Shown piece after piece: positions 26,567-34,572 of a stretch of DNA of 64,000 nucleotides. Origin of the DNA: Trypanosoma brucei (taxonomy: Eukaryota); assembly GCA_000002445.1 (NCBI GenBank), contig CP000067.1:640001-704000 (forward strand), given 5' to 3'. The notes under the pieces were generated by a model that saw only the letters and a program-made list of their open reading frames with translations, ran no database searches and was not told the origin of the DNA. Numbering within the stretch: the stretch's first letter is position 1; each line of letters begins with the position of its first letter. A program made the translations under genes and the position numbers.

Positions 26567-26640
26567 CGGTGGAGGTTAGCTTCCATTCCCACTCTGTCCC
26601 ACCGCTGCTGATTAAAGAAGGACTGTTTGTAGGTTCAACA

Positions 26641-27375
26641 ATGAGGCGGCCCAATGGTATGATTGCTATTTTAACGGGTGCTGGTATCTCTGCCGAGTCG
26701 GGCATTTCAACATTCCGTGATCAGAACGGCTTATGGGAAAACCACCGCGTGGAGGATGTTTGTACTCCTGCCGCCTTCCTCAAACAACCGACAGTCGTAC
26801 AGCGTTTTTACAACGAACGCCGGAGGGCCCTTCTTTCACCGGAGGTGAAGCCCAATGCTTCGCATCAGGCGCTTGCGAGGCTTCAACGTGAATACAAGGA
26901 TGGTCAAGTGGTTATCATTACGCAGAATATTGACGACTTGCACGAGCGGGCAGGATCAAGGCAAGTTTTGCACATGCATGGCGAACTGTTGAAGGTGCGC
27001 TGTACCGCGACAGGACGCGTGTTTGAGTCAAGGGAGGATGTGATCCATGGTGAATCGAAATGTGAATGCTGCGGAGTCGTAGAAACTCTAAGACCGCATA
27101 TAGTATGGTTTAACGAAATGCCACTGTATATGGATGTAATTGATGAAGTGGTGCAAAACGCGGGGCTTTTCGTGGCTGTGGGTACTTCCGGTAACGTATA
27201 CCCTGCAGCGGGTCTTGTGATGATTGCAAAAGCACATGGAGCAGAAACACTTGAACTCAACCTGGAACCCAGTGGGAACTGCAGGGACTTCGATCGGTCC
27301 GTTTACGGGCCGGCGTCTGTCATTGTTCCTGCTTGGGCCGACGAGGTGCTTCACGGAAAGGGTCCCGCGGCATGA
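26641..27375 (+). CDS. SIR2rp3: Sir2-family NAD-dependent protein deacylase (class III/U, bacterial CobB-like sirtuin). The longest ORF starts at 26569, but the polypyrimidine tract and AG at 26535-26566 argue for the ATG at 26641.
   Basis: Rossmann NAD-binding motif GAGISAESGISTFRD, then QNIDDLHERAG, catalytic His in LHMHGEL, a cysteine cluster CTATG...KCECCG, and VAVGTSGNVYPAAG. Its position is consistent with T. brucei SIR2rp3, from memory. Confidence 0.8.
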   Translation: MRRPNGMIAILTGAGISAESGISTFRDQNGLWENHRVEDVCTPAAFLKQPTVVQRFYNERRRALLSPEVKPNASHQALARLQREYKDGQVVIITQNIDDLHERAGSRQVLHMHGELLKVRCTATGRVFESREDVIHGESKCECCGVVETLRPHIVWFNEMPLYMDVIDEVVQNAGLFVAVGTSGNVYPAAGLVMIAKAHGAETLELNLEPSGNCRDFDRSVYGPASVIVPAWADEVLHGKGPAA

Positions 27376-27857
27376 GCCACTGCTCATTTTATATTCTTTC
27401 CTTTTCCTTCCCTTGTCTTTGCTTTATCCATTGTTGTTGTTGAGCTGCTCCAACCTCATCTTTTTGATGGCGTTCGTGTTTTTTTTTTTGTTCCAGGAAC
27501 TTGCCGTTGCAGTTTGAGTGGCTGTGTTGGAGTTGTGGCTTTGTTATGTCGTTTCGACGAATAAAAATGGTAGAGCAAAAAGTTCGCATCTCCTTGTCTC
27601 TGTACTCTCCCCTCCATTTCGCCTTCAAGTTAATCTCCGCATTGCTTGTTATCGTCACCATTACTGCTGTTTTAATTTCGTCCTTTGTCTTCTTTTGTGG
27701 ACCACATAAAAACGTTGGGAAGAAAGCACGCTCACACACTCTACACCTAACCGGTAGCAAAAAGAAAGCAAGATAAAGTAACACAAATAACAGTAATACC
27801 TCGCTCTTTTCATCATCTTTAACCACTAAACAGTTGCCTGCGTAATATTCAGCACTA

Positions 27858-28334
27858 ATGGGCTTCGGTGCAGTCGTCAGCTACTTTGGGCTCATCTTCT
27901 TGCTCACGGTGTTTATCGCCTCGGGTGTTCAAATCATGATGTACCCCACCTCAGGCGCCATGATGTTGGCGAAGAGTAACTTCCCCAAGTTGCTGGAAAT
28001 GGCTGGCATTCAGTACCGCCTCTCTGTTGCTGAATACACCATGGTTGTGCAGGGCATTGGTGCTTCCTGCATTGGCTTTTCCCTGCTAATGCTGCTGGGC
28101 GTTGGTCGTTCCTTCTTTGCCTTCTTGCTCGCCGTTTTGGTTTCTCTGCTTACACTCGCCTTCCACATTGACCTCCGTGCCCCCACGAAGATGAGTGAAA
28201 CGAATGCCTTTCAGGTCTTGAAGAATGCCGCCATTTTCGGTGGACTGATGTTTGTTGCAGGGAGCTCTGGTCGCTCCCGCGCCGCCCCACGGGCCGCCAC
28301 CAATGCGACGGGGAAAGAAAAAAAGAAGAATTAA
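27858..28334 (+). CDS. Small hypothetical integral membrane protein of 158 aa with about four transmembrane helices and a basic C-terminal tail.
   Basis: Four hydrophobic segments: GFGAVVSYFGLIFLLTVFIASGV, MVVQGIGASCIGFSLLMLLGV, FFAFLLAVLVSLLTLAF and AAIFGGLMFVAGS. Codon composition is non-repetitive, unlike the surrounding low-complexity ORFs. It is in the same orientation as its neighbours. Confidence 0.5.
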   Translation: MGFGAVVSYFGLIFLLTVFIASGVQIMMYPTSGAMMLAKSNFPKLLEMAGIQYRLSVAEYTMVVQGIGASCIGFSLLMLLGVGRSFFAFLLAVLVSLLTLAFHIDLRAPTKMSETNAFQVLKNAAIFGGLMFVAGSSGRSRAAPRAATNATGKEKKKN

Positions 28335-29785
28335 CCGACTCATGCATGCACCGCTTGCCGGGTCACCCCTCCGTAGAGAGAGAGAGAAAAAAAAGGAACT
28401 TCAGTGGATATTGCAGCGAAGAAAGAAAGAATAGGGAGGAGAGGGGGTTTGCATTACGTTCACAAGGGTTGTTTTGATTGATTACCTTCCCCTTTCTGTT
28501 TCCGTTTCCTTTTTCTTTTCTTTTCTTTTTTTTTGCTTTGTCTCATCTCATCTTTTCTTTTTATCTTTCCTCTCCTTATTCCCCTCGGTTTTCTCTTCTT
28601 CGCGTACTTGCTCTCCTGCCCCCCTGCGATTTTTTTTTATTCCTTTGCTTTTCTCTATGAATTCCTTCCGCACCCGATTATCTTAGTTATTTACTTCCCA
28701 CTGGCCCACTCCACTGTTGTGAGGGACGCCTGAAGGAAGTCATGTTGGGGAATGTTTGAATCACATGAATGAGTATTTGCAAAGAGAAGTAAACGCAGGT
28801 AAACAAAAAGTGGGAGAAAATTATATTATTTTTTTTGTGTGTGTTTCTTCCATTTTTTTTTTTAGTGGTGGGAACTTTTGACAACAGGAAGTGAGGGGTT
28901 GAGAGAAATCTCAAGAGGGAGAAAATGTGGAACGGAAAGAAAAGAAAAGAAAAGAGAAACAAAGATGAGTATCTTGGCAGTTGTAAGGGGAGGAATGGGA
29001 GGAACGGAGAAGTAATGACAAGTGAATCGACAATACCTTTAAGGGAAGAAGAAAAAAAAAGAAAACGAAAAAAAAAAATACATATTCATAACAACAATAA
29101 TATTGTTAATAACACACGCACCCGTATACATATATGGGGAAGAAAAGGAAAGGAAAAAAGGAGGGGATCCACAAAACAAAAAAAAGAGGGGGATGAAAAT
29201 GTTTTTATCAAGAGAAGTTTGGCACCATTAAAGGGAGGAAAAGAAACAGTCACTTCTGAAGTAAAAAAAAAGAAGAGAAAGATGCGAAGGTTAAACCCGA
29301 CTCATTTTAAAAACAAAGAGGGAAAGTAGAGAGGTTTGGTGGCACATTTTGTTACGCACTGAAACAATTTTTCTCCCCTTTTCAACGAAAAAATGAGAGA
29401 AAAATGGAAGTGCAATGATGATGTTCGACGCCAATATTGTTATTGTTGTTAATTACGTTGCACTGCACAGGGTCGTAAAAATGTGAGGACAAATAGAAAC
29501 TAAACTGGATCGAAACAAACTAAAGCACGAAAGACAAGAAGGGGGAAAACAAAAGAAAGGAAGAGGTAAAGAGATGATGGACTCAAAATCTATTTTGGGA
29601 CCTCCTACCCCCAACTGGTATAACAGGCGTGCAGGGAGAGGCCGTTTATTGGCGTTATCTAAAAATGTAATATTGCATGTGGTGTGGGCATTTAATTGTA
29701 GGAGTGCAGTGAAAGCATGACGGGGCGGGCATTAGTTATTTGCCGGCCTTTAGCCATGTCCTTCAAATAAGCACTTGTTTTGGTT

Positions 29786-29786
<1 letters not shown>

Positions 29787-29832
<46 letters not shown>
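29787..29832. repeat. Compound microsatellite (AT)7-(GT)16.
   Basis: Direct read: atatatatatatat gtgtgtgtgtgtgtgtgtgtgtgtgtgtgtgt. The architecture matches the repeat at 3953-4020. Confidence 0.95.
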
Positions 29833-29833
<1 letters not shown>

Positions 29834-30240
29834 GACAAATATGTTTCTTCTCTCTTTTTTCCCCCTTCTTCTTTTTTTTTTCTTTGAAAGAAAGAATTGT
29901 ATTTGTTTCTATTTTTCGTCCGTACGTCTTGGCGCCGGGTATCTATCCTGGAACACGTGGAAGTTATTTCGGTTACAAGGATACTTAGTAGTTCACTGGC
30001 GCATCACCTACAGCGCGGCGCACTGCACGAAAGCAAACAACGGTTAGAAACGCTAGCGAAGCGCACGTAAGTTTGCAAAAACAAGCAAAACCAAACAAAA
30101 AATCAGCTGCGTAAAATAAGGGCACAGAGCAAGGCACAGAATAGTTGGAAAACAGAGGTTATATATATATATATTTATTTATTTATTGTATAGGGTGTGC
30201 GGGTACGCGTTGGTTTGCACCACTGCGGAGGTAACTAACC

Positions 30241-30477
30241 ATGCTTCTTAAGGTGAAGACTGTAAGCAACAAGGTTATTCAAATTACCTCACTTACTGAT
30301 GATAACACAATAGCGGAGTTGAAGGGTAAGTTAGAAGAGTCAGAAGGCATTCCTGGGAATATGATCCGCCTTGTGTATCAGGGAAAGCAATTGGAGGATG
30401 AGAAGCGGCTGAAAGATTACCAAATGTCCGCCGGTGCGACATTTCACATGGTGGTGGCCCTGCGCGCGGGTTGCTGA
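30241..30477 (+). CDS. Ubiquitin-like protein with a NEDD8-like beta-grasp fold, 78 aa, and an atypical C-terminus ...ALRAGC.
   Basis: MLLKVKTVSNKVIQITSLTDDNTIAELKGKLEESEGIPGNMIRLVYQGKQLEDEKRLKDYQMSAGATFHMVVALRAGC aligns along its whole length with NEDD8 ([71 protein letters not shown]). NEDD8-diagnostic Ala72 is present (ALR...). The di-Gly is replaced by Ala-Gly followed by a single Cys. Confidence 0.75.
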   Translation: MLLKVKTVSNKVIQITSLTDDNTIAELKGKLEESEGIPGNMIRLVYQGKQLEDEKRLKDYQMSAGATFHMVVALRAGC

Positions 30478-31254
30478 TATATTGAGGAGAAACTCTAAAA
30501 CAGTTTGCTTCGGCATCTCTCAACAACTCATCCCATTACCATGTGAATGGCGAAATTGCACAAAGCTGGTGTCAAACAGCAGCATACGGCGCTGCATGGT
30601 TTCTATCGGCTGCGTCGTGCTCAGATGGTTAAGAGGGAGAAGATTGACCAGAGGAGAAATGAAGGAAGTTAAAGGCCGTTCAAAGAACGAAATTGGTACA
30701 AGGAGGCAAAAAGTCATGAAAAAATAGGCTATTGGGGACCTTAGCAGACTCGGACCTCAGCGGTATATATATATATATATATTCTTTCGTTTGTCTTGAT
30801 TTTACTTTCGTTCACCCCTTTGTTCATTCCTAATCCTTTCTCTGTCCTCTTTTTCCCACCTCAACTGTCGCTGTGGAAAAAAAAAGACAGGGAAATCGAC
30901 TGTTTGGAACACTGTTGAAATGGTGCGATACCAATGAGGCTCCACAGACTTCGCGTTTTCCGATCCTTCCTGATGCGCAACCGTTTCGGTTAATATATCA
31001 AAAGGAAGTGATGTCATGTGCGCAGGTGATTTTTGACCACTCAACTCTTAGCATACGCCAAAACACACACAGACAGACAAATAGTTTTCTTCTCTACAAT
31101 TGAGTGCGGGGAACCGCACATTATCTTTTCCAGGTGCTTTCAAGAAGTCAAAACACGAGGACGAGGGGAGACTGTTTTTTTGGAGGTGGACAGAAAATCA
31201 ACCCGCAGGTGAGGTTGCGGCAGCAGCGCAACCAAACCGGTCAGTCGGCAACTT

Positions 31255-32187
31255 GTGTTTTCCCATCGTCCAATCAAAATGTCACTGTGGCCGTTTCGTA
31301 CGGGCAATGACGAACGGTTTCAAGTCACAAGCACAGAAGAAACAATATACGACGCCATAAAGAATGAAATGCCAGCGTACCCGTACGGAACAGAGGTGGA
31401 CCGGTATCTGGAGTGGCGGTGGCGGCGTGGGTTAGTGCAAAGCATCTTTCCTGCCACATGCTATGGAGCATTTGTAGGCTTTGCGGTTGGATATCGTCAA
31501 GCGCGCGTGGAGGGTCGCTACATTGGTCGCTACAAAGTCGTGTGGCGCTACAGCTCAACGTTTGCAGCTGTTGGCCTCTTAACAACCGCATTCCATCATG
31601 TGCTTGTGGTGCGCAATAACTACCACGACCGTTTCTACTACCCCATGATGGCTGGTGCCTCCGGGGCTGTTGTACTCACAGTAGCCTCACAAATGGGGAC
31701 GCTCGGTCAAGGCATGCTAGCCGGCTCTTTAGTTGGTGTACTCTACACCTTAAGTTGCTACGGCATGACATATTACCACAGGCGGCGTCTCAAAATGTTC
31801 CTTCGTCAGCAGCAGACACAACAAGTTCCCGTGCATAAGGTGTCTCCTGAGCTTCAACGCATGTATAGGGCCTACCTTTATGATAACAGACCGTTGGAGG
31901 AGAAAGACGTGATGGTGCGGCGGGCAGTTGTGCTCTCCATGAGTGAAGATGACACCTGTTTGGATGCAAAGCGGGTTTTGCAAAACATGACGCCGGAGAT
32001 ATACGACTGGGTGAATTTTCCTGACTGGTGGCCACTGAAGTTCCCTCAACAGACGGAAGAGGAACGAATGATTTATGAACGGCAGCGCGACGAGGAAGTG
32101 GAGCGGCGAAAACGCGCTTTCCTTGAGACTGATGATGGGGCCCTCATTAAGCGCGTCAATCGGGCAAAAAAATACAGAGATTTATAG
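31255..32187 (+). CDS. Hypothetical membrane protein of 310 aa with Gly/Ala-rich (GxxxG/A) helices and an acidic/basic C-terminal tail.
   Basis: Hydrophobic segments VQSIFPATCYGAFVGFAVGY, FAAVGLLTTAFHHVLVV and MMAGASGAVVLTVASQMGTLGQGMLAGSLVGVLYTL. The C-terminus is charged and probably a soluble tail (EEERMIYERQRDEEVERRKRAF). Confidence 0.5.
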   Translation: MFSHRPIKMSLWPFRTGNDERFQVTSTEETIYDAIKNEMPAYPYGTEVDRYLEWRWRRGLVQSIFPATCYGAFVGFAVGYRQARVEGRYIGRYKVVWRYSSTFAAVGLLTTAFHHVLVVRNNYHDRFYYPMMAGASGAVVLTVASQMGTLGQGMLAGSLVGVLYTLSCYGMTYYHRRRLKMFLRQQQTQQVPVHKVSPELQRMYRAYLYDNRPLEEKDVMVRRAVVLSMSEDDTCLDAKRVLQNMTPEIYDWVNFPDWWPLKFPQQTEEERMIYERQRDEEVERRKRAFLETDDGALIKRVNRAKKYRDL

Positions 32188-32604
32188 CGATTTTCATTCG
32201 TCCGCGCCTTTGTGTAGCTAGAACGGTTCGATGGGCAAATGGACTTGTGATACCCATATCGTGTGTGTTGGCAATTGGATGAAGGTGAACGCAGACATCA
32301 AGTTCGGACAACATAGGCTCAGAATAACGTAAGGGAAAGTATTGTAAAAAGGTAGAGGGACCTCTCCACTACTCGCGTACCATTACGATTCTTCGCTGTT
32401 ATTTTGAATCTTTAATTTACATTCCTGTCTGTATTTTGTCGTCTCTTTGTTGCTGTGTCGTATAGAGGAAGGGAGGGGGGGCTGCGCGGTTTACAATCTT
32501 TCGTTGCAGTCCAGGAGGATAGTTACATTTGCACTAACTTGTAGTAGAAACCTCACCCGAGCAGATCGTGTCCAAATACCGGCTTACCACATACTCTCTC
32601 CTGT

Positions 32605-34572
32605 GTGAAGCAAACATTTCAACGGGGAGTAGGTGGAGAAAACTGGTGGGGGATGACCTTCAATGGAAGGTTTCGTGCGACGCTGCGCGGCATCAATATT
32701 AGAAATGCTTCAATGACTTCGTTGTCATTGACAGGAAGTCATGCACAAAAGCAGACGGTTTTAGGGAGCACTCCGGGGGCATTGGGCACAATACCGACAG
32801 TGGCCCTTAACGGAGTGAACCCACTGCCCCGTTACCGGCACAATCTGTTGTTTGGTACACTTTCATTTGGAGATCGCTGGGATCGTATTCAGCGTCGGTT
32901 GGCTGTTCTTGGGCGGGCGTCTACTGGAAATGTGGTAGTTCCGTTTAGTGACAGTGCTGACGCTTTCCGACGTATGTGGGAGTCTGTCGATTCTGCCAGT
33001 GATTCGGTCCTGTGGCAAACGTACATTTGCAAGGACGATTTCGTCGGGCAAAAAACGGTCAAGAAGTTAGAGGAAGCGCATCGTCGCGGGTGTAAAACAG
33101 AGTTGCTGTACGACTGCGGGGGAAACATAACTGGACGCAGGCGGCTGGTGGGTGACCTCAAAAAGTCTGGAGCTAACGTCATTGAACATCGTCCCATGTG
33201 GGAACATTTTTTCCCCTACTTCCTCAGGGGGATGAAGTGGGAGCTCAGTCCAGGTATACGTAACCACAGAAAAATCCTTATCGTCGACAACAAGTTGGGT
33301 TTCTGTGGTGGCCTCAATATTGGGGACGAGTACTGCGGTACGAGTGAGGGTGGAAATGGACGCTTTAGGGATACACATTGTGTCGTCATGGGTCCCGCCG
33401 TGATGCACATGCGCGAAGTATACGAAGATACAAAGGCGCCAAAGCCATGGAAATGGAGCTTAGCCCGGTGGCGACAGATTGCATCAGCGACAATGAACCT
33501 TCGGTACCTTGAGGGTATGAATGTGAAACATGACTACCTGGAGCCCACCACGACGTTTGTGCGCCAGGGCGGCGGTGTTTACCTCCGCCGCCAGATGGAG
33601 AGAGCGGAACGTAGCACAGTCCGTATGATGGAACGGATGCGATGGAAACGGCAGCGTGAGCGCCTGAATCGATGTCTGCTTACGCTCGCGAAAAACCTTC
33701 GCGAGGGGCAGGGGCTTGTATTCAAAGCCGCAACAGGTAAAGGCGATGACGTGGCAACCACGGATGCGGGAAGCAAGAGAAACAATGAGGTGTCTCATGG
33801 GCAATGGAAACTGATGAAGCGCCGCATCGACGAGTACCGCCAGCGTGCAATTAAAAACGCCGAGGAATCCTTTTTCCGTAGGTTGAGGGTGGTTAACCCA
33901 TCGATGCGCCTCCTTGAAGACACCTCACCCGTTGCGGAAGCTGAGGCATATGGTCAAGCGCATGCCGCTGTGACGCAGGTGCTCTCCTGTAATCCCCACT
34001 CACGTGACTGGTCCATTCCTTATGCCTTTTGGCAAGTGTCAAAGTTTGTTCACCAGAGATTGTGGGTTACCACTCCTTATTATATGCCTCACAGGAAGTT
34101 AATGCGTGCCCTTCAGTTGGCTGCTCGCCGTGGTGTCGATGTCCGCATCCTCGCAGGAAGCAACCGGACAACAGACCCATGGTTCATGTGGTATGCATCG
34201 AATTATATCACGGGTATGCTAATGGCATCGGGGGTTCGCGTCTACGAATATAAGGGAGGGCAGGTGATGCACGCTAAAACAGTGGTAGCGGACAGCATAT
34301 GGACCTCCATCGGGAGTTACAACTGGGACATGATGAGCAATAAGAATATGGAAATTTGTGTTTGCCACCTGGACCACAATTTGGCTCTAACTATGGAAAA
34401 GCAGTTTCTTGACGACATGAATGTGAGCGAGGAGGTGAACTATGAAGAATATCAACGGCGCTCCTTGTGGCTACGGTTCTCCTCGTGGTTTTTCTACACC
34501 GCTTTGCGGATCGCGGAGAAGTTCACGTTTCGAACCTTCTGGGATCCCGATCTCTCCTCCGAGATAGACTAG
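32605..34572 (+). CDS. CLS: Cardiolipin synthase of the bacterial/PLD type, with two HKD motifs.
   Basis: HKD motif 1 is [26 protein letters not shown] motif 2 is [23 protein letters not shown]. Both have the H-x-K-x4-D...G-S/G-x-N architecture of the PLD superfamily. The large size (655 aa) and position are consistent with T. brucei CLS, from memory. Confidence 0.85.

What the first reader, a model, noticed from the sequence alone, without database searches (positions are those of the whole stretch)
30241..30477. NEDD8-like ubiquitin-like protein that ends RAG-C instead of the canonical RGG
The 78 aa ORF aligns with NEDD8 throughout. It has the MLxKVKT start, the Ala72-equivalent and the LALR tail. 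The penultimate Gly of the di-glycine conjugation motif is Ala (..LRAG), and it is followed by a single Cys before the stop. Processing hydrolases and E1 enzymes are normally strict about the Gly-Gly tail. Either this modifier is processed to expose ..RAG, which would be a noncanonical conjugation terminus, or it is not conjugated, as with Hub1-type modifiers. A third possibility is that this is not the organism's true NEDD8.
Basis: seen in the sequence. Interest (0 to 1): 0.55.

Follow-up and report, generated by a model that had tools for sequence, protein, structure and literature searches.

The report
Trypanosome NEDD8 with Ala-Gly tail
This ORF is the already characterised NEDD8 gene of Trypanosoma brucei (Tb927.4.2540), and its unusual ...LRAG ending, in place of the near-universal ...LRGG, is real and conserved across the trypanosomatid species sampled, in a modifier reported to be attached to cullins.

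Summary
Window 30241-30477(+) encodes a 78-aa ubiquitin-fold protein ending ...VVALRAG-C.

It is a known gene. The window is T. brucei TREU927 chromosome 4, 640001-704000, and the ORF is Tb927.4.2540 (TbNedd8, UniProt Q584D3, PDB 2LRW/5GO0). According to a review I could read, the primary study found TbNedd8 essential and conjugated to all six cullins. A 2025 proteomic study recovers it with TbCul-A, -D and -E.

The Ala-Gly tail is not an error.
- It occurs in all 25 distinct trypanosomatid or trypanosomatid-like sequences I retrieved (Trypanosoma, Leishmania, Leptomonas, Novymonas, Lotmaria, Porcisia).
- All four Ala codons are used at that position.
- None of 113 other NEDD8-type homologues with a readable tail has it.
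- The residue after Gly is variable, and three sequences stop directly at ...LRAG. This marks that Gly as the mature conjugating end.

"Hub1-like, not conjugated" and "not the true NEDD8" are not.

What may be new is small: the family-wide, codon-level conservation, and the predicted Lys-AG tryptic remnant (+128.059 Da, against +114.043 Da for GG). I could not read the primary 2017 paper, so I cannot say whether the tail was already discussed there.

The parts
30241..30477 (+). Complete CDS of Tb927.4.2540 (TbNedd8 precursor, 78 codons plus TGA)
   Evidence: Translation. Pfam PF00240. The exact protein is Q584D3 / PDB 2LRW, 5GO0. Published location is Tb927_04_v5.1:670241-670477(+), 78 aa.
30241..30471 (+). 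Predicted mature modifier, residues 1-77, ending ...ALRAG
   Evidence: Inferred. Gly77 is invariant in all 25 trypanosomatid or trypanosomatid-like sequences. The residue after it is variable, and three sequences have none.
30457..30459 (+). Ala73 codon (gcc), the equivalent of NEDD8 Ala72. This position is Arg in ubiquitin and sets E1 selectivity.
   Evidence: Alignment A2. Ala occupies this position in 104 of the 113 non-trypanosomatid homologues with a readable tail.
30466..30468 (+). Ala76 codon (gcg), the penultimate residue of the mature protein where Gly75 is canonical
   Evidence: Ala is kept with GCG, GCT, GCC and GCA in different species.
30469..30471 (+). Gly77 codon (ggt), the predicted C-terminal conjugating glycine
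   Evidence: Invariant residue encoded by GGT, GGA, GGG and GGC across species.
30472..30474 (+). Cys78 codon (tgc), a one-residue propeptide predicted to be removed
   Evidence: This position is C, V, T, M, H, Y, R, F or G in other species, or absent.
30232..30234 (+). In-frame upstream TAA that fixes the start codon
   Evidence: Read directly from the sequence.
30159..30193 (+). T/A-rich tract followed by AG, a plausible spliced-leader acceptor about 48 nt upstream of the ATG (inferred only)
   Evidence: Sequence and TTAT/TA repeats at 30159-30187. No transcript data were examined.

Best explanation
The ORF is the single-copy NEDD8 orthologue of Trypanosoma brucei (Tb927.4.2540, TbNedd8). 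It is made as a 78-residue precursor. A C-terminal hydrolase removes Cys78 and exposes Gly77. The NEDD8 E1 (APPBP1-UBA3) activates that glycine, which passes to Ubc12 and is then joined by an isopeptide bond to the conserved lysine of cullins, switching on cullin-RING ubiquitin ligases. The only departure from the canonical pathway is that the residue before the reactive glycine is Ala, not Gly. This change was fixed before Trypanosoma and the Leishmaniinae diverged and has been kept by selection. The trypanosomatid E1, processing enzyme and deneddylase must therefore accept Ala at that position. What is shown and what is inferred: gene identity, sequence, conservation and NEDD8-type character are shown here. 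Conjugation to cullins and essentiality come from the literature, read second-hand. The cleavage site, the use of Gly77, and the tolerance or co-adaptation of the enzymes are inferred.
For: Identity: the published location of Tb927.4.2540 ('Nedd8'), Tb927_04_v5.1:670241-670477(+), 78 aa, equals the finding's coordinates plus 640,000. The exact sequence is Q584D3 / PDB 2LRW and 5GO0. NEDD8 character: a NEDD8 profile scores 84.8 bits against 59.1 bits for a ubiquitin profile, and the human controls behave correctly. RUB1 and NEDD8 chains outscore single ubiquitin in the PDB search. The Ala72 equivalent is present. Nearly all named non-trypanosome hits to the profile are annotated NEDD8 or RUB1. 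Function: a review of Liao et al. 2017 reports that knockdown is lethal, global ubiquitination drops, and six cullins were validated as substrates. Tb927.4.2540 is significantly enriched with TbCul-A, -D and -E. The likely L. infantum orthologue co-purifies with Cul1 and Skp1. Tail...ALRAG is found in all 25 trypanosomatid or trypanosomatid-like sequences, at a conserved syntenic position between SIR2, a small membrane protein, a 302-aa membrane protein and a PLD-type gene. All four Ala codons occur at the penultimate position, against a background of 25-48 synonymous codon differences between species. The residue after Gly is unconstrained, and three sequences including Lotmaria passim stop right after ...LRAG.
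Against: I could not read the primary paper (Liao et al. 2017, PMC5247642), so conjugation through Gly77 is taken from secondary sources and comparative inference. The cullin pull-downs do not themselves prove a covalent bond. A genome-wide search for a second, canonical NEDD8 was not possible; only the 64-kb window and word-indexed protein searches were covered. In yeast ubiquitin, most substitutions at G75 and G76 behave as loss of function, so Ala at this position would be expected to need adapted enzymes, and I could not examine those. In L. mexicana the UBA3 null is viable while UBC12 appears essential, so the trypanosomatid cascade may not be fully canonical.
Confidence: 0.9

Rival explanations
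1. It is a non-conjugated, Hub1-type ubiquitin-like protein that binds its partners, including cullins, non-covalently. On this view the AG tail reflects loss of conjugation.
For: The di-glycine motif is broken. Cullin pull-down enrichment does not by itself separate covalent from non-covalent association. G75 and G76 substitutions in yeast ubiquitin are mostly non-functional.
Against: The terminal Gly is invariant across all 25 sequences and is encoded by four different codons, while the next residue is free to vary or is absent. That is the signature of a processed, reactive C-terminus. The Ala72 E1-selectivity residue is kept. Reviews report validated conjugation to six cullins. Hub1 ends in Tyr-Tyr with no Gly (my own knowledge).
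Confidence: 0.03
2. It is a divergent paralogue, and the real cullin-modifying NEDD8, ending ...LRGG, is encoded elsewhere in the genome.
For: Only 64 kb of the genome could be searched directly. The large protein searches are limited by a word index.
Against: The protein identified with cullins by mass spectrometry is this one, Tb927.4.2540. Its knockdown is reported lethal, with loss of global ubiquitination. No Trypanosoma or Leishmania protein with an ...ALRGG tail appeared among 121 profile hits, and every trypanosomatid hit was the AG type. One AG-type gene sits at the same syntenic site in every trypanosomatid checked except Phytomonas EM1, whose assembly has a gap there.
Confidence: 0.04
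3. The Ala is a sequencing error or a strain-specific variant of a canonical GGN codon.
For: GCG differs from GGG by a single base.
Against: The same protein is annotated in four Trypanozoon records. Ala is present in every other trypanosomatid sequence, with GCG, GCT, GCC and GCA codons. The expression constructs deposited in the PDB also carry ...RAGC.
Confidence: 0.01

Closest known systems
Human NEDD8 / yeast and plant Rub1 (canonical NEDD8 family)
   Same: Same beta-grasp fold. MLxKVKT start, acidic E31/E32 pair, Ala72 equivalent, and hydrophobic-patch residues kept or conservatively replaced. Made as a precursor with a short C-terminal extension. Reported to modify cullins through an APPBP1-UBA3 / Ubc12 cascade.
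   Different: The penultimate residue of the mature tail is Ala rather than Gly (LRAG against LRGG). None of the 113 non-trypanosomatid homologues with a readable tail has this. It also has a one-residue insertion in the first loop and is only 44% identical to human NEDD8.
Plasmodium falciparum NEDD8 (tail-less NEDD8)
   Same: A protist NEDD8 whose C-terminal processing differs from the textbook. PfNEDD8 is encoded already ending at the reactive Gly, as are the Lotmaria passim and two environmental trypanosomatid-type sequences here.
   Different: PfNEDD8 keeps Gly75-Gly76. The trypanosomatid proteins have Ala-Gly.
UFM1, ATG8 and ATG12 (modifiers with a single C-terminal Gly)
   Same: They show that a ubiquitin-like modifier can be activated and conjugated with only the last residue being Gly and a bulkier residue before it. 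UFM1 is also made with a short extension that is cut off (my own knowledge, not tested here).
   Different: They are distant in sequence and use dedicated E1 and E2 enzymes (UBA5, ATG7). TbNedd8 is a NEDD8 orthologue expected to use a UBA3-type E1.
Hub1
   Same: A small ubiquitin-fold protein without a di-glycine motif.
   Different: Hub1 lacks a C-terminal Gly altogether and acts non-covalently (my own knowledge). TbNedd8 keeps an invariant terminal Gly and is reported to be conjugated.

Membership tests
NEDD8/Rub1 | Ubiquitin beta-grasp fold of about 76 residues | tested here: met
   Pfam PF00240, E=4.3e-20, covering residues 3-74. The identical sequence has solved structures 2LRW and 5GO0.
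NEDD8/Rub1 | Closer to NEDD8 than to ubiquitin | tested here: met
   NEDD8 profile 84.8 bits against ubiquitin profile 59.1 bits; controls were human NEDD8 at +40.9 and human ubiquitin at -65.7. BLASTP 71.2 against 63.5 bits. In the PDB search, RUB1 scored 64.7 and NEDD8 about 62 bits, against about 54 for ubiquitin. Caveat: the NEDD8 profile was built from hits found with a trypanosome-containing query, though trypanosomatid sequences were left out of it.
NEDD8/Rub1 | Ala at position 72 (Arg in ubiquitin), the residue that directs the modifier to the NEDD8 E1 | tested here: met
   A73 in ...VVALR... aligns with NEDD8 A72 and ubiquitin R72. It is conserved in all trypanosomatid sequences.
NEDD8/Rub1 | C-terminal Leu-Arg-Gly-Gly (di-glycine) in the mature protein. 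This is typical of the family, but the functional requirement is the terminal Gly. | tested here: not met
   The tail is Leu-Arg-Ala-Gly. All 113 non-trypanosomatid homologues with a readable tail have RGG. For this reason I treat it as a tail variant of NEDD8, filed on orthology and reported function.
NEDD8/Rub1 | Reactive C-terminal Gly followed by a short, unconserved propeptide or by nothing | tested here: met
   Gly is invariant. The next residue is C, V, T, M, H, Y, R, F or G, or the stop codon follows directly. This is comparative inference, not a cleavage assay.
NEDD8/Rub1 | Covalent attachment to the conserved cullin lysine through a dedicated E1-E2 cascade | not testable with these tools
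   Literature only. Six cullins were validated as substrates according to a review of Liao et al. 2017. The protein is enriched with TbCul-A, -D and -E. The primary paper was not readable.
Ubiquitin | Arg72 and an LRGG tail, near-invariant sequence, encoded as a poly-ubiquitin or ribosomal-protein fusion | tested here: not met
   It has Ala at position 72 and an AG tail, is 40% identical to ubiquitin, and is a stand-alone 78-codon gene.
Hub1 | No C-terminal glycine, non-covalent action | tested here: not met
   The Gly is invariant and sits next to last or last. Conjugation is reported.

The most novel reading that the evidence does not exclude
The Ala-Gly terminus is an ancient, selected, trypanosomatid-wide change that has not been analysed as such. 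On this reading the NEDD8 E1 adenylation channel, the precursor-processing hydrolase and the CSN5-type deneddylase of these parasites have co-adapted to Ala before the scissile or reactive Gly. Two things would follow. First, trypsin would leave a native Lys-AG remnant (+128.059 Da) that separates neddylation sites from ubiquitylation sites (+114.043 Da) without any engineered NEDD8. Second, there would be a parasite-specific recognition feature usable for selective probes or inhibitors.
Probability: 0.3. Interest if true: 0.5.

Novelty: already known. Interest (0 to 1): 0.3.

Why it matters
The gene itself is not new. It is the characterised, essential NEDD8 of T. brucei, with two solved structures. 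The tail still deserves a sentence in the field, because the di-glycine end is treated as near-universal for ubiquitin, NEDD8, SUMO and ISG15. This natural, functional NEDD8 lineage shows that the penultimate Gly can be replaced. It also predicts a distinct tryptic remnant, which would let neddylation and ubiquitylation sites be told apart in trypanosomatids. In human cells that separation needs engineered NEDD8 (my own knowledge). It also hints at adapted E1 and protease pockets in parasites where the NEDD8 pathway has been proposed as a drug target.

Tried and rejected
- The exhaustive representative search with the 78-aa protein returned only poly-ubiquitin-like proteins in its top 150. It gave no orthologues.
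- The first word-indexed search found only Trypanosoma orthologues and one unnamed sequence. A profile search added NEDD8s from fungi and animals but no Leishmania.
- I reached the Leishmaniinae by synteny instead: I searched with the kinetoplastid-specific downstream neighbour, fetched flanks, then looked up clusters by exact sequence.
- Deeper kinetoplastid-like contigs (L010-L015) keep part of the gene block but have no ubiquitin-like gene there. Phytomonas EM1 has an assembly gap at the site. I therefore could not date the Gly-to-Ala change beyond the Trypanosoma/Leishmaniinae ancestor.
- The search for related loci on metagenomes found nothing. A degenerate DNA pattern for T-x-[HN]-M-V-x-A-L-R-A-G found one real relative, L016, with an ...ALRAGGF tail, and one chance match, L017.
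- Papers not held: Liao et al. 2017, Ponder and Bogyo 2007, and Roscoe et al. 2013 under the PMC id I recalled from memory.
- No paper I could read comments on the AG tail. It is visible in the alignment of PMC7677368, Fig. S2.
- The antisense ORF at 30293-30526(-) is a mechanical ORF inside the CDS with nothing to support it.

Full report
**1. The observation**

Window 30241-30477 on the + strand is an ATG-to-TGA ORF of 78 codons. It translates to MLLKVKTVSNKVIQITSLTDDNTIAELKGKLEESEGIPGNMIRLVYQGKQLEDEKRLKDYQMSAGATFHMVVALRAGC. An in-frame TAA lies at 30232-30234, so no longer reading frame is possible. The last codons are ctg-cgc-gcg-ggt-tgc-tga, which read Leu74-Arg75-Ala76-Gly77-Cys78-stop. 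The description is accurate. The only slip is that the residues before Arg are V-V-A-L, not L-A-L.

The ORF matches the Pfam ubiquitin family at E=4.3e-20. It is 44% identical to human NEDD8 and 40% identical to ubiquitin over 77 residues. tblastn with NEDD8 and ubiquitin finds no other ubiquitin-like sequence anywhere in the 64-kb window.

**2. What it is**

The exact 78-residue sequence is UniProt Q584D3 of T. brucei brucei TREU927. It is annotated identically in T. b. gambiense, T. equiperdum and a fourth Trypanozoon record, and it is the protein in PDB entries 2LRW and 5GO0.

Supplementary tables of a 2025 study of trypanosome cullins list Tb927.4.2540 under the label Nedd8, with the product line "ubiquitin, putative". 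The location given is Tb927_04_v5.1:670241-670477(+), length 78. That is the finding's coordinates plus exactly 640,000. The window is therefore chromosome 4, 640001-704000, and the ORF is Tb927.4.2540.

The neighbours fit this placement. All lie on the + strand, as expected for a polycistronic unit:
- a SIR2-family gene upstream (Tb927.4.2520 appears in a review of parasite sirtuins);
- a 158-aa membrane protein with no Pfam match;
- a 302-aa membrane protein with no Pfam match;
- a PLD-type gene (Tb927.4.2560 appears in a paper on cardiolipin depletion).

**3. NEDD8 or ubiquitin?**

I built a profile from 70 non-trypanosomatid NEDD8 domains and another from 44 distinct ubiquitin repeats. The ORF scores 84.8 bits on the NEDD8 profile and 59.1 bits on the ubiquitin profile. 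The human controls go the right way: NEDD8 at +40.9 bits and ubiquitin at -65.7 bits.

Three further points agree:
- In the PDB search, plant RUB1 (64.7 bits) and human NEDD8 (about 62 bits) outscore single ubiquitin (about 54 bits).
- The residue aligned with position 72 is Ala, as in NEDD8, not Arg as in ubiquitin. From established knowledge, this residue is the main determinant that keeps NEDD8 off the ubiquitin E1.
- Apart from two unusually long proteins, one of them labelled ubiquitin C, the named non-trypanosome hits to a profile of the Trypanosoma orthologues are mostly annotated NEDD8 or RUB1.

**4. What is known about its function**

I could not read the primary paper (Liao et al. 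2017). A 2020 review summarises it as follows:
- Knockdown is lethal and reduces global ubiquitination. It causes re-replication, spindle defects and flagellum detachment.
- All six cullins were validated as substrates.

A second review repeats the main points. Independently, Tb927.4.2540 is significantly enriched in pull-downs of TbCul-A, TbCul-D and TbCul-E. In L. infantum, a "ubiquitin-like protein" on chromosome 34 (LINF_340026400) co-purifies with Cul1 and Skp1 and was proposed to be the NEDD8. The L. infantum sequence I retrieved (P0323) carries that same name, but I could not confirm the gene identifier.

**5. Is the Ala-Gly tail real and selected?**

Every trypanosomatid orthologue I could obtain ends ...ALRAG. 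The species are:
- Trypanosoma: T. brucei and the other Trypanozoon, T. vivax, T. cruzi, T. rangeli, T. grayi and T. melophagium;
- Leishmania: L. tarentolae/braziliensis/panamensis, L. mexicana/infantum, L. major, L. lindenbergi and L. martiniquensis;
- other Leishmaniinae: Porcisia, Novymonas, Lotmaria and two Leptomonas species.

Wherever I fetched DNA, the genes are orthologous by position: SIR2, small membrane protein, this gene, 300-aa membrane protein, PLD.

The penultimate Ala is encoded by GCG, GCT, GCC or GCA, and the Gly by GGT, GGA, GGG or GGC. Pairs of Trypanosoma species differ at 25-48 synonymous codons out of 77. The amino acids are therefore being held in place, not the nucleotides.

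By contrast, all 113 non-trypanosomatid homologues with a readable tail end RGG.

**6. Where is the mature end?**

The residue after the Gly is C, V, T, M, H, Y, R or F in different species, and G in the two L016-type sequences. T. rangeli has a longer extension. Three sequences, including Lotmaria passim, have the stop codon directly after ...LRAG. An invariant Gly followed by an unconstrained or absent residue is the pattern of a processed, reactive C-terminus. Tail-less NEDD8 is already known in Plasmodium falciparum. I therefore infer that Cys78 is removed and Gly77 is the conjugating residue. This is a comparative inference, not a measurement.

**7. Mechanism**

The most likely mechanism is the ordinary NEDD8 cycle:
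- precursor trimming by a UCH-type hydrolase;
- activation by APPBP1-UBA3 (Tb927.2.4020 is the APPBP1 subunit);
- transfer to Ubc12;
- ligation to the cullin lysine;
- removal by the COP9 signalosome.

The one change is Ala in place of the penultimate Gly. In yeast ubiquitin, most substitutions at G75 and G76 behave as non-functional. The parasite enzymes therefore probably have a slightly roomier channel. From my own knowledge, UFM1, ATG8 and ATG12 show that E1 chemistry as such needs only the terminal Gly. I could not retrieve the T. brucei enzymes to look for such changes.

One practical consequence follows from arithmetic. Trypsin cuts after Arg75, which would leave Ala-Gly on the modified lysine. 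That remnant is +128.0586 Da, against +114.0429 Da for the Gly-Gly left by ubiquitin. This assumes T. brucei ubiquitin ends in the canonical LRGG (my own knowledge, not tested here).

**8. Rivals**

- A Hub1-like, non-conjugated role does not fit the invariant terminal Gly, the retained Ala72 equivalent, or the reported conjugates.
- A hidden canonical NEDD8 elsewhere in the genome is unlikely. The protein found with cullins is this one, its knockdown is lethal, and no trypanosomatid ...ALRGG protein appeared in any search. A whole-genome scan is still needed to close this.
- Sequencing error is excluded.

**9. Comparison and novelty**

This is a NEDD8 orthologue by sequence, synteny and reported function. 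It fails one family-typical feature, the di-glycine. The gene, its function and its structure are already published. The tail is visible in at least one published alignment, in which T. brucei Q584D3 is shown ending ...ALRAGC. I found no readable paper that comments on it. I cannot check the primary paper.

What this analysis adds is modest:
- The tail is found in every trypanosomatid sampled.
- It is held by selection at the codon level.
- The tail-less variants support Gly77 as the mature end.
- It predicts a distinct mass spectrometry remnant.

I rate the novelty as "already known", with low to moderate interest.

Noticed in passing
L007:6382-6624(+), L008:6958-7200(+); proteins P0319-P0334: The Leishmaniinae orthologues are much more divergent than the Trypanosoma ones. 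They start MTF[ST]FSVIS instead of MLIKVKT. The Arg42, His68 and Lys48 equivalents are Met, Asn and Arg. Identity to human NEDD8 (36-38%) is no higher than identity to ubiquitin (38-40%), although the NEDD8 profile still wins by 15-17 bits.
   Followed up: partly
L016:106-345(+) (contig SXGS01026227.1); sibling protein P0318: A contig of unknown organism encodes a NEDD8-like protein with a Trypanosoma-like start (MLIKVKTV) and the tail ...HMVLALRAGGF. The sibling ends ...RAGGL. The mature end could be RAG or RAGG. The next gene is AnmK-like, so this contig is not syntenic with the trypanosomatid locus.
   Followed up: partly
P0321 (Lotmaria passim), P0330, P0333: Three Leishmaniinae-type sequences are encoded with the stop codon directly after ...LRAG. 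These are tail-less NEDD8s that would need no C-terminal processing.
   Followed up: yes
L006:187-441(+) (P0002) and P0274, T. rangeli: Two T. rangeli assemblies give different extensions after ...LRAG: 7 residues (MGPGAVF) and 34 residues. Other Trypanosoma species have a single residue. This may be an assembly or annotation difference, or a genuinely longer propeptide.
   Followed up: no
L009-L015 compared with window 26569-34572: The block of ABC transporter, SIR2, 155-aa membrane protein, NEDD8, 300-aa membrane protein and PLD is conserved in Trypanosoma. In L. tarentolae and Leptomonas the block from SIR2 to PLD is conserved, with a protein kinase rather than the ABC transporter upstream in Leptomonas. 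More divergent kinetoplastid-like contigs keep the PLD-type gene, and most keep the small membrane-protein gene, but they lack both SIR2 and the ubiquitin-like gene at this site. Phytomonas EM1 has an assembly gap there.
   Followed up: partly
window 29786-29832, 30159-30187, 30764-30782: Microsatellites flank the gene: (TA)7 followed by (TG)16 upstream, a TTAT/TA tract just before the likely splice acceptor, and (TA)9 downstream.
   Followed up: no
literature (PMC7647121): In L. mexicana a null mutant of the NEDD8 E1 subunit UBA3 was obtained, yet the NEDD8 E2 UBC12 appeared essential. The authors suggest a second E1 or a neddylation-independent role. This bears on how the AG-tailed NEDD8 is activated.
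   Followed up: no
window 30293-30526(-): A 77-aa antisense ORF lies almost wholly inside the NEDD8 CDS. Nothing supports it as a gene, and all neighbouring genes are on the + strand.
   Followed up: no
literature (PMC7677368, supplementary Fig. S2): The published alignment prints the T. brucei sequence as ...TFHVVVALRAGC, whereas the genome and PDB sequences read ...TFHMVVALRAGC. This is probably a transcription or text-extraction slip.
   Followed up: no
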